In this document: piece after piece, positions 7,990 to 28,840 of the stretch | How the letters are laid out: every line of letters begins with the position of its first letter | Numbering within the stretch: position 1 is the first letter of the stretch | Source of the DNA: a bacterium | Lineage (GTDB): Bacteria > JAJVIF01 | Assembly: GCA_022072165.1 (NCBI GenBank) | Contig: JAJVIF010000004.1 | Location: 79,667 to 143,666 of the forward strand | Reading direction: 5' to 3' | Length of the DNA: 64,000 bases | Position numbers and translations under genes: made by a program | The notes under the pieces: generated by a model | Seen by the model: the letters and a program-made list of their open reading frames with translations, nothing else | Database searches by the model: none | What the model was told of the DNA's origin: nothing

Positions 7990-8300
7990 AAATGCGATCC
8001 CCTAAGTGGCCCCCGGTCGCTGCGCCATTCCCCGATCAAGCCCCCGGTCGCTGCGCGACCACCCCCTAAGCGGCCCCCGATCGCTGCGCGACCACCCCCG
8101 CAAGCGGGGGGGGGGAGGGAAGGTGTGCAAAAGCTCAGAGGGGCGACCGGGGGTCGCCCCTCCGAAAGTCGATGAATCATCTGGTGGGTCGACCTCCAGG
8201 TCGATGGGTGCTGGGACTTCAGTCCCCGACACACCAGCGCATGGACCCGTACGGACCAGACATCACGTCCCAGGTCTAAAGACCTGGTGTCCGGCGCAGC
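7990..8300. repeat. GC-rich palindromic intergenic repeat element, copy A (inverted relative to copy B at 28480..28840)
   Basis: Reverse complement of this segment shares blocks with 28480..28840: GGTCTTTAGACC(Y)GGGACGTGAT, GGGACTGAAGTCC, CCCATCGACCT(R)GAG(R)TCGAC, CCACCAGA, CCTCCCTCCCCCCCGCTTGCGGGGG, GAGGGGCGACC...GGTCGCCC. Confidence 0.7.
8011..8108. repeat. three imperfect tandem copies of a ~32-bp unit (AAGCGGCCCCCGGTCGCTGCGCGACCACCCCCT-like) inside repeat copy A
   Basis: Units at about 8011, 8041 and 8069, each containing the palindrome GGTCGC-TGC-GCGACC. Confidence 0.6.
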
Positions 8301-8428
8301 CGCCGGGGGCCTCCTGTCGTGACCGCACCTACGCCACCTGCAGCAACCCATGGCGCTTGTATACTCGGGGGACGACACCAGCAGCCTGTCGGAGCGACAG
8401 CCTGCCTGCCAGGGGAGGGGACACCACC

Positions 8429-8944
8429 ATGAGTCTGCGCGGCAAAGTCATCAAGCTCGGTGACAACATCGACACCGACCTCATCATTCCGGCCCGCTAC
8501 TGCAACATGTTTAAGGAAGAGGAACTCGGACCCCATGCGCTGGCCGGGATCGAAGAGCAATATGTCGCGAAGCATGTGGCGCGGGGCGACATCCTGGTGG
8601 CCGGCAGCAACTTCGGCTGCGGGTCCTCCCGGGAAGCCGCGCCGGTCAGCCTCAAGGGGGCCGGTTTCGCCTGTGTCATCGCTGATTCCTTCGCACGCAT
8701 CTTCTACCGCAACTCCTTCAACATCGGGCTGCCGATTCTGGAGTGCCCGGAGGCCGCGATAGGGATCAGCCAGGGGGATGACGTCGAGATCGATCTCGCC
8801 TCCGGGGTCATCACGAACCACACCACCGGTACGAGCTACCAGGCCGCACCCTTTCCCCCCTTCATCCAGGAGCTGGTGCAGGCGGGGGGCATGGTCAACT
8901 ATGTGCGTCAGCGCCTGGAAGCGCAGGCGGTCCCGGCAGAGTAA
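8429..8944 (+). CDS. leuD: 3-isopropylmalate dehydratase small subunit-like (aconitase swivel domain, LeuD family)
   Basis: MSLRGKVIKLGDNIDTDLIIPARY...GDILVAGSNFGCGSSREAAPVSLKGAGFACVIADSFARIFYRNSFNIGLP is typical of short LeuD; ATG at 8429 preceded by AGGGGAGGGGA. The track ORF extension back to 8006 runs through the repeat and is not used. Confidence 0.8.
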   Translation: MSLRGKVIKLGDNIDTDLIIPARYCNMFKEEELGPHALAGIEEQYVAKHVARGDILVAGSNFGCGSSREAAPVSLKGAGFACVIADSFARIFYRNSFNIGLPILECPEAAIGISQGDDVEIDLASGVITNHTTGTSYQAAPFPPFIQELVQAGGMVNYVRQRLEAQAVPAE

Positions 8945-8992
8945 TCCGTCGACGCAGCCCGGCGGCCATCAGGACAGGTCCCTAACAACGCA

Positions 8993-9024
8993 CATCGCCC
9001 CCGGGGAGTCATCCGGGGGCGATG
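8993..9024 (+). terminator. perfect 12-bp stem hairpin downstream of leuD (terminator-like, no U tract)
   Basis: CATCGCCCCCGG-GGAGTCAT-CCGGGGGCGATG about 50 nt after the leuD stop. Confidence 0.25.
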
Positions 9025-9260
9025 CTGGTTCTCAGGCCGGGCTTATGGGGCTCCCTGTCAGCCTGGTGCGGGTGGCAGCGCAAGGAGGCGTGGATCATCG
9101 CCGGGTGCAGGAAGTCGGGAAGGTCAGGCACAGACTGCATCCCTGCTCCTGGCGTGTCCCACATGAGGAACCTACGGGGGCGGCGCTTAATATGTCAAGA
9201 GAGTTGACACGAATTTTGGCGGCAATGGCCCTTTCAGCGCCTGTGCTTTAATCACTCTGA

Positions 9261-10127
9261 ATGCCAGAGAGTGCCTCATTGCCGCCGGCGCCGCCGCCTC
9301 TTGATCCGCACCGGCCGCAGCCGGTGATTCAGCTACGCCATGTCACCTGCGGCTATGGGACGGTCCCGATCCTGCGGGATCTTTCCTTTGACATCTGCGA
9401 GGGCGAAGTCTTCGTCATCATCGGGGGGTCCGGGAGCGGAAAAACCACGCTATTGCGGACCCTCATCGGCTTTGCCCAGGTGCTGGAGGGGGACCTCTGG
9501 ATTCTGGGGCAGCACGTGACGACCCTGCGGGAGTCGGCCTGGAGTCGCATTCGCGAGCGGATGGGCATGGTGTTCCAGAAGGCCGCCCTCTTTGACAGCC
9601 TGACGGTGTACGAAAATGTCGCCTTCCCTCTGGTCGAGCGCTACCCGAAGATGAAGCCCAAGGAAGTGGCGCAGCGGGTCTTCGACATCCTGGACAGTGT
9701 CAATCTCGGCGGGACCGAATCGCTCTATCCCAATGAGATTTCCGGCGGTCAGGCCAAGCGGGTCGGGCTGGCCCGGGCACTCATTGATAAGCCAAAGATT
9801 CTGCTGTACGACGAGCCAACCTCGGGCCTCGACCCGGTGATGACCGCGAATGTCGATGGTCTGATCCTGCAGGCGAAGGCGCAGTACGAGGTCACGAGTG
9901 TGGTGGTGAGTCACGACATGAACAGCGTCTGGCGCATTGCCGACCGCGTGGTGGTCCTGCATGAGCGTCGGCTGCTCGCACTGGGGACACCGGAAGACAT
10001 ACAGTCGCATCCGGACGACGAATTGCAGCAGTTCATCGGGGGGCGACTCCCGTCGGACAATCCGCTGGGACAGGTGCTGGAGCAGTACGGTCATCAGCGA
10101 CCCTCCATGAGGGAGCGTCGGCTATGA
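9261..10127 (+). CDS. ABC transporter ATP-binding protein, MlaF/Mkl-like
   Basis: Walker A GGSGSGKTT, signature ISGGQAKRVGLARAL, Walker B ILLYDEPTSGLD, H-loop SHDM; overall resembles MlaF. Confidence 0.85.
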   Translation: MPESASLPPAPPPLDPHRPQPVIQLRHVTCGYGTVPILRDLSFDICEGEVFVIIGGSGSGKTTLLRTLIGFAQVLEGDLWILGQHVTTLRESAWSRIRERMGMVFQKAALFDSLTVYENVAFPLVERYPKMKPKEVAQRVFDILDSVNLGGTESLYPNEISGGQAKRVGLARALIDKPKILLYDEPTSGLDPVMTANVDGLILQAKAQYEVTSVVVSHDMNSVWRIADRVVVLHERRLLALGTPEDIQSHPDDELQQFIGGRLPSDNPLGQVLEQYGHQRPSMRERRL

Positions 10128-26753: not shown

Positions 26754-26978
26754 CGCCCCATTATTGCAGAAATCAACTGAAAAGTGCAATGCACAAGGCG
26801 TTCATTGCACTTTTCCTCAACCAGGGGGCAACGAGAAGAAGTGACGCTGGGGGGGCCAGCCCCTCGATTTTCCCACCACCCTGCCCTAGAATGGCCCGTT
26901 AGCGAACGCCCCACCGGGCGTTCCCTTTGTGCGCGACTGACCAGGTCGCATCGCTTGTCCACGGACGGAGGTCCGCCC

Positions 26979-28379
26979 ATGCCCGGTGTCGGGAAAGTCA
27001 CCCAGGTTATCGGCCCGACGGTCGACTGCCAGTTCGCTTCGGATCAGCTCCCGGCGCTCCTGAACGCCCTGACGATTCAGGACGAGGCCCGGGGGATCCG
27101 CCTCACGGTCGAGGTGGCCCAGCACCTGGGCAACGACGCGGTCCGGTGTGTCTCCATGGGTCCCACCGACGGACTCGTCCGCGGAATGCCCGCCATGGAC
27201 ACCGGCGCGCCCATCACCGTGCCGGTCGGCGATCTGACCCTCGGACGCATTTTCAATGTCCTGGGCGAGCCCATCGATGGGGCTGGCCCGGTGCCGACGG
27301 ACATCCACCGGATGCCGATTCACCGCGACCCGCCACCCCTCACCGACCAGTCCTCGACCATCGAGCAGTTCGAGACAGGCCTGAAAGTGGTCGACCTCCT
27401 GACCCCCTATGCGAAGGGGGGCAAGATCGGCCTCTTCGGCGGCGCGGGTGTGGGGAAGACCGTCCTTATCCAGGAGCTCATCAACAACATCGCGCAGCAG
27501 CATGGTGGACGCTCGGTCTTTGCGGGCGTGGGTGAGCGGACCCGCGAGGGGAACGACCTCTTCCTGGAAATGACCGAGTCCGGGGTGATCAGCAAGACCA
27601 CGCTGGTCTTCGGGCAGATGAACGAGCCGCCGGGCGCCCGCCTCCGGGTGGGACTCACGGGCCTCACCATGGCGGAGTACTTCCGCGACTCTGAAGGGGC
27701 GGACATCCTCCTCTTCATCGACAACATTTTCCGCTTCGTCCAGGCCGGGTCCGAGGTCTCCGCGCTGCTGGGTCGTATGCCCTCCGCTGTGGGGTACCAG
27801 CCGACCCTCGCCACAGAGGTAGGCGCGCTCCAGGAGCGGATCACCTCCACGGTCCGCGGGTCGATCACCTCGATTCAGGCGATCTATGTCCCCGCCGACG
27901 ACCTCACTGACCCCGCCGTGGCCACCACCTTCGCGCACCTGGATGCCACCACCGTGCTCAGCCGCCAGATCGCCGAGCTTGGCATCTACCCGGCCGTGGA
28001 TCCACTGGACTCCTCCAGCCGCATCCTCGACCCGCTGGTCATCGGCGAGCGCCACTACGGCATCGCCCGGCAGGTCCAGGGGATTCTGCAGCGCTACAAG
28101 AGCCTGCAGGACATCATCGCCATCCTCGGCATGGACGAGCTCTCCGAAGAGGACAAAGTGGTGGTGGGGCGCGCCCGCCGCATCCAGCGCTTCCTCTCGC
28201 AGCCGTTCAATGTCGCCGAGCAGTTCACCGGCTTCAAGGGGAAGTACGTCACCCTCCCCGAGACGCTGGACTCTTTCGACGAGATTCTCTCCGGCAAGCA
28301 CGACCATCTGCCCGAGAACGCCTTCTACATGCGGGGCGGGATCGAGGATGTGGTCGAGGCTGCGAAGTCGATGAGCTAG
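26979..28379 (+). CDS. atpD: F-type ATP synthase beta subunit
   Basis: Walker [23 protein letters not shown] motif ([13 protein letters not shown]); ATG at 26979 with GGACGGAGG RBS. Confidence 0.95.
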
Positions 28380-28405
28380 CAGGCGCGCCGGATCAAGCTT
28401 TGAAG

Positions 28406-28439
28406 CGACGGGACTCCAGCGGGTCCCGTCGTTTTTTTG
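28406..28439 (+). terminator. rho-independent terminator after atpD
   Basis: GACGGGAC-TCCAGCGG-GTCCCGTC followed by GTTTTTTTG. Confidence 0.75.
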
Positions 28440-28479
28440 TGTGACGCGATGAAGTGCCCCACACACGGACCCTCTTCCG

Positions 28480-28840
28480 GAGCCCGGGTCTTTAGACCCG
28501 GGACGTGATTCTTGGCCCGCACAGCCCTATGTGTCGAAGCGTTAGGGACTGAAGTCCACCGACCCATCGACCTAGAGATCGACACCCCGGTCGACCATGA
28601 GGTCAACCCACCAGACCAATCGATTTCCTCCCTCCCCCCCCGCTTGCGGGGGGGGGGCGGCGCAGCCGCCGGGGACTTTCTCGGTGGGAGCGCAGCAACC
28701 GGGGGCTTCTGCGCCGCTCGCGCCGCAGTCCATACCGGAGAAAATTCGCATTGCACTCGACTCGGAGGGGCGACCCCCGGTCGCCCGGTGCCCCGACGCC
28801 CGCGTCGGTGGGGGCCGCGACGCCCCGTCGCGGATATGAA
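28480..28840. repeat. GC-rich palindromic intergenic repeat element, copy B
   Basis: Shares sequence blocks with reverse complement of 7990..8300; contains C8-GCTTGC-G10 (28634..28657) and GAGGGGCGACC-CCC-GGTCGCCC hairpin. Confidence 0.7.

What the first reader, a model, noticed from the sequence alone, without database searches (positions are those of the whole stretch)
7990..28840. A ~300-bp GC-rich modular repeat present twice in inverted orientation about 20 kb apart
Copy A (7990..8300) and copy B (28480..28840) share several sequence blocks in opposite orientation, both in intergenic DNA (upstream of leuD; downstream of the atpD terminator). They bracket leuD, the MlaF/MCE/TamB operon, khpB, tRNA-Val, atpG, the Fic block and atpD. 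Inverted repeats of this size can mediate inversion of the intervening segment by homologous recombination. The elements may be a REP/MITE-like family with more copies elsewhere in the genome.
Basis: seen in the sequence. Interest (0 to 1): 0.5.

Follow-up and report, generated by a model that had tools for sequence, protein, structure and literature searches.

The report
Decaying palindromic repeat clusters, not a switch
Two stretches of non-coding DNA 20 kb apart really do share about 250 bases in opposite orientation. They are ordinary, slowly decaying clusters of small hairpin-forming repeats, like the REP/BIME elements of other bacteria, and nothing suggests they flip the genes between them.

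Summary
Window 8038-8294 aligns with the reverse complement of 28477-28708: 182 matches in 262 columns, local score 108 against 21±2.5 in shuffles. These are the only two copies in the window, and both are extragenic.

Each copy is a mosaic of short GC-rich palindromes:
- M1, GGTCGC-TGC-GCGACC
- a C-run/G-run hairpin ("e")
- hairpin "g"
- GTCGACC units
- a 112-nt core with the hairpins GGGAC-TTCA-GTCCC and CCAGGTC-TAAA-GACCTGG

Related strains carry the core at both orthologous sites, but the small modules come and go. The core changes as fast as, or faster than, four-fold degenerate sites, and it shows no net covariation and no Rfam match. It therefore looks like a decaying repeat, not an RNA gene or a regulator.

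A third, partial copy lies elsewhere in the same species. The two core hairpins recur as GTAG-headed REP doublets in Acidobacteriota MAGs, and M1 recurs in unrelated metagenomes.

No inversion is supported. All syntenic contigs have the window's orientation, GC skew does not reverse, and identity is about 75-80% with exact runs of at most 25 nt.

Verdict: a REP/BIME-like mosaic in an unclassified bacterial MAG, a new member of a known kind. Whether a transposase drives it could not be tested.

The parts
8009..8099 (+). Three tandem M1 units (8009, 8040, 8073). The consensus is GCCCCCGGTCGCTGCGCGACCACCCCC, with the hairpin GGTCGC-TGC-GCGACC.
   Evidence: Direct-repeat family D2. Pattern search gives 7 matches against 1.3 expected, all but one in A or B.
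8095..8113 (+). Module e, a C-run/G-run hairpin: CCCCCGC-AA-GCGGGGG...
   Evidence: (I9, D9). The length of the G run varies among strains.
8137..8165 (+). Module g, the hairpin GGGGCGACC-GGG-GGTCGCCCC. It lies inside a roughly 42-nt segment that copy B lacks at this position.
   Evidence: 25/25-nt inverted match to 28762-28786 (I4). DNA fold -14.3 kcal/mol, z -4.3. Alignment.
8183..8294 (+). Core of copy A. It holds hairpins H1 (TCGACCT-CC-AGGTCGA, 8189-8204), H2 (GGGAC-TTCA-GTCCC, 8213-8226) and H4 (CCAGGTC-TAAA-GACCTGG, 8270-8287).
   Evidence: The core is present at the orthologous site in L016, L017, L019 and L020.
8292..8315 (-). M1-like unit in the opposite orientation, closing copy A.
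   Evidence: D13; 8294-8310, minus strand, 2 mismatches.
28477..28588 (-). Core of copy B. It holds H4 (CCCGGGTC-TAAA-GACCCGGG), H2 and H1.
   Evidence: Orthologous but degenerate in L022 and L021.
28591..28615 (-). Extra GTCGACC-type hairpin unit (H0) next to the core. It is absent from copy A of the window but present at the A site in L019 and L020.
   Evidence: I7; alignments.
28635..28706 (-). Module e (28635-28654) and two M1 units (28660-28676 and 28690-28706). The first is a compensated variant, GGCGGC-TGC-GCCGCC.
28762..28835 (-). Module g followed by two more GC-rich hairpins. These are the only parts of B still recognisable downstream of atpD in the more distant relative L029.
   Evidence: (I4).
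28859..28999 (.). A pair of 27-nt GTAG-headed palindromes in inverted orientation (28859-28885 and 28973-28999) with an 87-nt spacer. This is a REPIN-like long hairpin lying beside copy B.
   Evidence: I6, 93% complementary. DNA fold -43.7 kcal/mol, z -3.8. Logan contig L023 diverges from the window just beyond its outer arm, at 28855.

Best explanation
A and B are two clusters of short extragenic palindromic repeats, of the kind known from enterobacteria and pseudomonads as REP/BIME/REPIN elements. They sit in an uncultured, unclassified bacterium.

An older hairpin-rich unit of about 110-230 bp, a core of three to four stem-loops, came to lie at two extragenic sites in opposite orientation. 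A shorter version lies at a third site. This happened before the sampled strains diverged, and the unit has been decaying since without selection on its sequence.

Around it, smaller palindromic units (M1, the C/G-run hairpin, g and the GTCGACC units) have been added, duplicated in tandem and deleted. That is why the two copies look modular.

Shown here: homology, extragenic position, hairpin content, module turnover between strains, a neutral or faster rate of change, and related motifs as multi-copy elements in other genomes.

Inferred: that spread is driven by a hairpin-recognising single-strand HUH/Y1 transposase (RAYT-like), or by slippage and microhomology at hairpins. Also inferred is that any host effect, such as extra termination or insulation between genes, is incidental.

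The pair is not an inversion switch.
For: - Highly significant inverted homology, found only at these two sites in the window.
- Every block is a short GC-rich palindrome.
- Both clusters lie outside transcription units. B is between two convergent terminators. A is upstream of a TATACT element that is invariant in all orthologues and lies 64 nt before leuD (inference).
- At the A site, L019 has the core but no M1, e or g, and has extra GTCGACC units. L020 has g plus the core. At the B site, L022 has g fused to the core, L021 has only a degenerate core, and L029 has only g plus two hairpins.
- The A core is 81-84% identical to L019 and L020, against 80-86% at four-fold sites. The B core is 58-70% identical, against 77-83%. 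In the near-identical strain L016 the core has 4 changes in 110 nt, against 5 in 1041 four-fold sites.
- In RNAalifold on 7 sequences the covariation term is unfavourable (+1.73), with as many broken pairs as compensated ones. No Rfam family reaches threshold.
- A third locus in the same species carries H4-like, H0, e and M1 in the same order. Short-read contigs of the species break inside A.
- The loops and inner stems of H2 and H4 recur 10 times in 5 Acidobacteriota MAGs as intergenic doublets, GTAGCGCAGGACTTCAGTCCTGC...GCAGGTCTAAAGACCTGCGCTAC. About 0.1 matches are expected by chance (my estimate).
- The GTAG head and the inverted pairing are the hallmarks of REP/BIME elements (PMC3479197; PMC3337134).
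- The M1 26-mer followed by a C/G hairpin recurs in unrelated metagenome contigs. In L031 and L046 it forms both ends of an inverted-repeat element.
Against: - No RAYT or Y1 transposase was found. None is among the window ORFs scanned with Pfam, and no HUH-motif ORF appears in the 422 kb held.
- The core hairpins and M1 lack the GTAG head that defines classical REPs. Only the neighbouring 27-nt pair has it.
- The genome-wide copy number is unknown, and only three loci were seen. The contig breaks could also come from strain mixtures.
- An exact-pattern scan of JGI metagenomes for the core found nothing.
- About half of the 20 M1 pattern hits are chance or coding matches.
- The direction of module gain or loss cannot be polarised.
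Confidence: 0.7

Rival explanations
1. The two inverted copies act as substrates for homologous recombination, so the 20-kb segment from leuD to atpD inverts.
For: The copies are inverted and 20.2 kb apart. A perfect 25-nt inverted match exists in hairpin g. That is about the minimal length reported for RecA-dependent exchange in E. coli, which I cite from memory. One Logan contig (L023) does show an alternative junction at a nearby repeat.
Against: - Overall identity is 74-80% with 35 gap columns, and the collinear exact runs are short (about 13 nt or less in the alignment).
- Three or more related strains keep both parental junctions.
- GC skew stays positive through 8-26 kb, as in most of the flanks, with no reversal at A or B.
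- The L023 junction leads to a locus outside the segment through a different repeat, and it may be an assembly walk.
- No recombinase gene is adjacent.
Confidence: 0.04
2. The 112-nt core is a structured non-coding RNA or a cis-regulatory element present in two paralogous copies, for example a small RNA gene or a leader for leuD.
For: The core is retained at both orthologous sites in strains about 20% diverged at neutral sites. Its length is nearly constant at 112-113 nt. A few stem changes are compensatory: H4 is CCAGG/CCTGG in A and CCGGG/CCCGG in B, and L021 has lost one whole base pair. RNA folding gives z = -2.2 for A.
Against: - The rate of change equals or exceeds that of four-fold sites.
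- The covariation term is unfavourable, and broken pairs are as common as compensated ones.
- There is no Rfam match. Acido-Lenti-1 scores 19 bits against a cut-off of 37, and the match covers only a generic hairpin.
- A lies upstream of the conserved -10-like element of leuD.
- B points into the atpD terminator, antisense to atpD, with no gene downstream.
- Folding of B is not better than shuffles (z = -0.9).
Confidence: 0.08
3. The copies result from a plain ancient duplication of one intergenic segment, with no mobile-element biology. The hairpins would then simply be the genome's usual terminator-like palindromes.
For: Only two full copies of the core are known. Both are old and decaying. 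No transposase and no target-site duplication was found.
Against: A third partial copy lies at an unlinked locus. The same hairpin pair (H2/H4) and the same M1 26-mer occur as multi-copy extragenic elements in unrelated genomes. Modules turn over independently of one another.
Confidence: 0.15
4. The repeat is protein-coding. The MAG annotation calls a 187-aa hypothetical protein (GEEBNDBF_02591) across copy B.
For: An ORF at 28376-28939 (-) exists and is deposited as MCG3153279.1. The translations of A and B share a short in-frame stretch, SRSMG..TSVP..HVPGLKT.
Against: The ORF has no homologue among 5.8 billion proteins. It overlaps the atpD terminator and the 3' end of atpD. It is destroyed by indels in L021 and L022. 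At the A site, the only reading frame that spans the core on that strand is an in-frame extension upstream of leuD.
Confidence: 0.02

Closest known systems
REP sequences organised into BIMEs (bacterial interspersed mosaic elements) of E. coli and other enterobacteria
   Same: Both are short imperfect GC-rich palindromes confined to extragenic DNA. Both are combined in variable order and orientation with other short motifs into clusters of roughly 100-500 bp. Both often lie between convergent genes or after terminators, and their composition varies between strains (definition in PMC3479197).
   Different: The hairpin sequences are unrelated to the E. coli y/z REPs. The core hairpins, M1 and g lack the 5' GTAG head. 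Copy number and an associated TnpA-REP/RAYT are unknown. The host is an unclassified, deep-branching MAG.
REPINs, which are REP doublets mobilised by RAYT transposases (Pseudomonas, E. coli)
   Same: [quoted passage not shown] It persists vertically at orthologous sites, as described for REPINs (abstracts).
   Different: No RAYT was found. The core is decaying, whereas an active REPIN population consists of near-identical copies. The spacer between H2 and H4 is 46 nt and itself contains further stems.
GTAG-headed hairpin doublets in Acidobacteriota MAGs (found here and, as far as my searches show, not described)
   Same: They share the exact 12-mers GGACTTCAGTCC and GGTCTAAAGACC, in the same order and orientation, each forming the loop and inner stem of a hairpin. 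They are intergenic and occur 3-4 times per MAG in the fragments retrieved.
   Different: There the hairpins are framed by GTAGCGC...GCGCTAC and lie 20-60 nt apart, often in tandem. Nothing outside the two hairpins aligns with the window's core (nhmmer E = 0.05-2). The window's organism is not shown to be an acidobacterium: the nearest named AtpD proteins are only 74-77% identical.
MITEs (miniature inverted-repeat transposable elements)
   Same: The element is small, non-coding, structured and dispersed. In contigs L031 and L046 the M1 + hairpin module forms both ends of an inverted-repeat element of roughly 190 bp.
   Different: In the window no consistent terminal inverted repeats or target-site duplications delimit A and B. 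M1 flanks A on both sides but B on one side only.

Membership tests
REP/BIME | Short (about 20-40 nt) imperfect palindromes able to form stem-loops | tested here: met
   M1, e, g, H0/H1, H2 and H4 are all palindromic.
REP/BIME | Restricted to extragenic DNA | tested here: met
   A lies between the small ORF and its terminator and leuD. B lies between two convergent terminators. The one ORF called on B is spurious.
REP/BIME | Mosaic clusters: units in both orientations, combined with other motifs, and variable between loci and strains | tested here: met
   Module order differs between A, B and the third locus, and among strains.
REP/BIME | Conserved 5' GTAG tetranucleotide at the foot of the hairpin (PMC3479197) | tested here: not met
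   It is absent from H2, H4, M1, e and g in both copies. It is present only in the adjacent 27-nt pair at 28859-28999 (I6) and in the Acidobacteriota doublets.
REP/BIME | High copy number, from tens to hundreds per genome | not testable with these tools
   Only 64 kb of the genome is available. Three loci were seen (A, B and L023). The contig breaks at A are suggestive but ambiguous.
REPIN-RAYT system | A single-copy RAYT (Y1/HUH transposase, PF01797) flanked by the repeats | not testable with these tools
   None is among the window ORFs scanned with Pfam, and no HUH-motif ORF appears in the 422 kb held.
REPIN-RAYT system | Two inverted REPs separated by a short spacer and folding into one long hairpin | tested here: inconclusive
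   This is clearly met by 28859-28999. For H2/H4 the two hairpins are related (9 of 14 positions, my own count), but the predicted folds of the core show separate local hairpins, not one long hairpin.
MITE | Terminal inverted repeats and target-site duplication delimiting each copy | tested here: not met
   M1 and inverted M1 flank A (8009 and 8294-8310), but B has M1 on one side only. No duplicated flanking bases are visible.
Programmed DNA inversion switch (invertase- or integrase-driven) | Near-identical short inverted repeats flanking the invertible segment, with a site-specific recombinase gene nearby | tested here: not met
   Identity is 74-80% with indels. No recombinase is among the neighbouring genes. 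All related contigs show one orientation.
Curated RNA families (Rfam 15) | Score at or above the family's gathering threshold | tested here: not met
   The only hit in the window is tRNA-Val. The best sub-threshold hit on B is Acido-Lenti-1 at 19.4 bits against 37. There is nothing on A.

The most novel reading that the evidence does not exclude
The small hairpin modules may belong to families that cross phylum boundaries. These are the H2/H4 doublet, shared with Acidobacteriota REP doublets, and the 26-nt M1 unit plus C/G-run hairpin, shared with elements in contigs of 56-69% GC.

That would mean REP-like elements, and presumably the hairpin-specific transposase that recognises them, have moved horizontally between distant bacteria. 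REPIN-RAYT systems are currently described as almost strictly vertically inherited. The window's clusters would then be the worn footprint of such an invasion in an undescribed lineage.
Probability: 0.2. Interest if true: 0.5.

Novelty: new member of a known kind. Interest (0 to 1): 0.22.

Why it matters
Practically, it matters for three reasons.
- It explains why short-read assemblies of this organism break upstream of leuD and downstream of atpD.
- It shows that the annotated gene GEEBNDBF_02591 is spurious.
- It shows that no phase-variable inversion of a housekeeping block that includes ATP synthase subunits needs to be invoked.

Biologically, it adds an uncultured, unclassified lineage to the bacteria that carry REP/BIME-like mosaics. 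It also gives a small, clean example of such elements being retained at orthologous sites while evolving neutrally and turning over module by module.

The only aspect with wider reach is the sharing of exact hairpin motifs with Acidobacteriota and with other metagenomic lineages. If confirmed together with the cognate transposases, that would bear on whether REP systems can transfer horizontally.

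Tried and rejected
- **Chance similarity:** rejected by shuffles.
- **Further copies in the window:** module searches with mismatches and an nhmmer profile of the core found none.
- **Known RNA families:** Rfam at gathering threshold and at E ≤ 5-10 on both regions gave nothing. The same was true on the Acidobacteriota loci and the metagenome loci. The weak Acido-Lenti-1 hit is only a generic hairpin.
- **Conserved RNA structure:** RNAalifold on 7 orthologous and paralogous cores gave an unfavourable covariation term.
- **Metagenome scans:** the core centre (GGTCGATGGGT N3-5 GGACTTCAGTCC) gave 0 hits. 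The M1 scan gave 20 hits, of which roughly half are chance or coding matches, such as a DPRSLRDRELP protein motif and a XerC/D-like motif.
- **Viral contigs:** three patterns gave 0 hits.
- **Finding other copies through spurious ORFs:** the 187-aa ORF on B has no homologue.
- **RAYT search:** Pfam on essentially all window ORFs, plus an HUH-motif regex over 422 kb of held sequence, found none.
- **Taxonomic placement:** the NCBI record says only "bacterium". AtpD has a 92% relative in one JGI contig and then nothing above 77%. P0033 turned out to be an unrelated Firmicute locus.
- **Literature string searches for the motifs:** these returned only irrelevant primer hits. Searches for the SRA and JGI accession numbers returned nothing.
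- **Exact-product look-ups:** three look-ups failed to find the gene on record: two because of a wrong start codon, and AtpD although its sequence is in the protein collection.

Full report
**Observation.** The two stretches were read directly and compared.
- A local alignment joins window 8038-8294 to the reverse complement of 28477-28708. It has 182 identities in 262 columns and 35 gap columns.
- The longest ungapped block is 112 nt at 74%: 8183-8294 against 28477-28588.
- The score of 108 compares with 21.3 ± 2.5 (maximum 31) for 500 dinucleotide-preserving shuffles, and with 33 for the best other segment of the window.
- Nothing else in the 64 kb resembles either copy.

The homologous part is about 230-260 bp, slightly less than the 300-360 bp reported.

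**Anatomy.** Both copies are built from short GC-rich palindromes. On the + strand, copy A reads in this order:
- three tandem M1 units (GCCCCCGGTCGCTGCGCGACCACCCCC; hairpin GGTCGC-TGC-GCGACC)
- a C-run/G-run hairpin, "e"
- hairpin "g" (GGGGCGACC-GGG-GGTCGCCCC)
- a 112-nt core holding H1 (TCGACCT-CC-AGGTCGA), H2 (GGGAC-TTCA-GTCCC), weaker middle stems and H4 (CCAGGTC-TAAA-GACCTGG)
- an M1 unit in the opposite orientation

Copy B, read on the - strand, has g, a 55-nt spacer, two M1 units, e, an extra GTCGACC hairpin (H0) and the core. Relative to the core, g therefore sits in a different place in the two copies, and A carries a roughly 42-nt segment containing g that B lacks there. Next to B lies a further pair of 27-nt palindromes with GTAG heads in inverted orientation (28859-28885 and 28973-28999). 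This pair folds into one long hairpin.

**Context.**
- B lies between two convergent terminator-like hairpins (28402-28435 on +, 29054-29033 on -).
- A lies downstream of a small conserved ORF and a terminator-like hairpin. It lies upstream of a TATACT element that is invariant in all orthologues and sits 64 nt before leuD. A is therefore probably not part of the leuD leader, though this is an inference.
- The window comes from an NCBI MAG labelled only "bacterium" (locus tags GEEBNDBF_, contig of 270,950 bp). Its AtpD has one 92% relative and otherwise nothing above 77%. Many of its proteins have no Pfam domain.

**Comparison with related strains.** Exact-protein look-ups recovered orthologous loci from other assemblies.
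- A site: L016 and L017 (nearly identical strains) carry the whole composite. L019 and L020 are about 15-20% diverged at four-fold sites. L019 keeps the core but lacks M1, e and g, and has extra GTCGACC units. L020 has g and the core but no M1 or e.
- B site: L022 has g fused directly to a degenerate core. L021 has only a degenerate core. L029, whose atpD is 84% identical in nucleotides, has only g and two hairpins, plus two extra genes.
- The core is therefore old and vertically retained at both sites, while the small modules turn over. The direction of each gain or loss cannot be decided.

**Is the core under selection?**
- The A core is 84% and 81% identical to L019 and L020. leuD and tamB four-fold sites are 80-86% identical.
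- The B core is 70% and 58% identical to L022 and L021. Four-fold sites there are 77-83% identical.
- Against the near-identical L016, the core has 4 differences in 110 nt, while tamB has 5 in 1041 four-fold sites.
- By contrast, the stretch 7523-7900 just upstream is 95% conserved.
- RNAalifold on seven cores gives an unfavourable covariation term and as many broken pairs as compensated ones. Rfam has no match.

The core thus behaves as neutral or decaying DNA, not as an RNA gene or an operator.

**Is it a dispersed family?**
- All five short-read contigs that carry the identical LeuD end inside or just beside A.
- Contig L023 is 100% identical to the window from 30466 down to 28855. It leaves the window just beyond the outer arm of the 27-nt GTAG pair and continues into another locus, next to two unknown genes. 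That locus carries an H4-like hairpin, H0, e and M1 in the same relative order as B. This is a third, shorter copy, whether the join itself is real or an assembly walk.
- A scan of 185,579 species genomes for the two core hairpins (GGACTTCAGTCC N30-60 GGTCTAAAGACC) found 10 matches. I estimate about 0.1 would be expected by chance.
- All 10 are in five Acidobacteriota MAGs, up to four per MAG. All are intergenic and have the form GTAGCGCAGGACTTCAGTCCTGC ... GCAGGTCTAAAGACCTGCGCTAC, often in tandem. The GTAG head and the inverted pairing are the published hallmarks of REPs and BIMEs (PMC3479197; PMC3337134).
- A metagenome scan for M1 returned 20 hits. About half are chance or coding matches.
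- Six contigs extend the match to CCCCCGGTCGCTGCGCGACC(A/G)CCCC followed by a C/G-run hairpin or a compensated variant. In two of them the module forms both ends of an inverted-repeat element of about 190 bp.

**Inversion.**
- The copies are only 74-80% identical and are interrupted by indels. The longest exact inverted run is the 25-nt g hairpin.
- Both parental junctions are found in every related contig that spans them.
- One 31.9-kb contig appears to run collinearly from nhaA through A to Fic, judging.
- GC skew stays positive across 8-26 kb, as in most of the flanks.
- No recombinase gene is nearby.

There is therefore no support for inversion. Very rare exchange cannot be excluded without long reads.

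**Mechanism and membership.** The best reading is a REP/BIME-like mosaic: relics of an older hairpin-rich unit, plus small palindromic units that are still being added, duplicated and deleted.
- Membership features met: palindromic units, extragenic location, and a mosaic, variable organisation.
- Not met for the core and M1: the GTAG head. Only the adjacent 27-nt pair has it.
- Not testable here: the copy number and the RAYT transposase. No Y1 transposase is encoded in the window, and no HUH-motif ORF occurs in the 422 kb retrieved.

I therefore say it works like a REP/BIME cluster and file it as a new member of that general kind, not as a proven REPIN-RAYT system.

**Rivals.** I give roughly 0.04 to an inversion substrate, 0.08 to a structured RNA or regulator, 0.15 to a plain duplication without mobility, and 0.02 to coding sequence. 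The annotated 187-aa ORF on B has no homologue among 5.8 billion proteins.

**Verdict.** The inversion idea is unsupported. Interest is low. The one thread worth pulling is the sharing of exact hairpin motifs with distant lineages.

Noticed in passing
window 7765-7895 (+), within the conserved stretch 7523-7900: A long imperfect palindrome of about 125 nt ends in GCUGUUUUG. Its RNA MFE is -85 kcal/mol, with z = -3.5. The surrounding 378 nt are 95% identical to strain L019, while four-fold sites are only 80-85% identical, so unlike the A/B core this stretch looks constrained. It follows a conserved 37-aa ORF (about 7627-7740) and contains a third exact copy of GGTCGATGGGT (7826-7836). It may be a long terminator, a small RNA or a REPIN-like hairpin.
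   Followed up: partly
window 28859-28999; L023 1468-1608: A pair of 27-nt GTAG-headed palindromes lies in inverted orientation with an 87-nt spacer, which is REPIN-like. Logan contig L023 is identical to the window up to 28855 and then continues into a different locus next to 818-aa and 568-aa unknown genes. This is either a structural variant or an assembly walk through a multi-copy repeat.
   Followed up: partly
window 28376-28939 (-): The deposited annotation calls a 187-aa hypothetical protein (GEEBNDBF_02591, MCG3153279.1) that lies on repeat B and overlaps the atpD terminator. It has no homologue in the 5.8-billion-protein collection, so it is almost certainly a spurious ORF.
   Followed up: yes
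window 21648-28379: The F1 ATPase genes atpG and atpD are separated by about 4.4 kb. This gap carries an amine oxidase and a Fic/DOC protein on the opposite strand, plus an unknown ORF. No atpC follows atpD.
   Followed up: no
L031 2236-2422; L046 507-666; L038 10880-11143; L041, L042 and L048 upstream of mutS: The 26-nt M1 motif plus a C/G-run hairpin occurs in unrelated metagenome contigs of 56-69% GC. It appears as both ends of an inverted-repeat element of about 190 bp, as tandem arrays at a contig end, and as a single conserved unit in a divergent promoter region upstream of mutS. In that last case the adjacent hairpin shows compensatory changes.
   Followed up: partly
L006-L015 (Acidobacteriota MAGs): Intergenic doublets and tandem arrays of GTAGCGCAGGACTTCAGTCCTGC / GCAGGTCTAAAGACCTGCGCTAC look like an undescribed REP/BIME family of Acidobacteriota. 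No Rfam family matches them.
   Followed up: partly
window 18010-18197: The C-terminal part of KhpB (17464-18216) is encoded by a tandem 21-27-nt repeat that gives a Gly/Tyr/Arg-rich tail.
   Followed up: no
window 4331-7522: The gene upstream of A encodes a 1063-aa UvrD-type helicase with an RNase T/DEDD exonuclease domain inserted within its C-terminal helicase domain.
   Followed up: no
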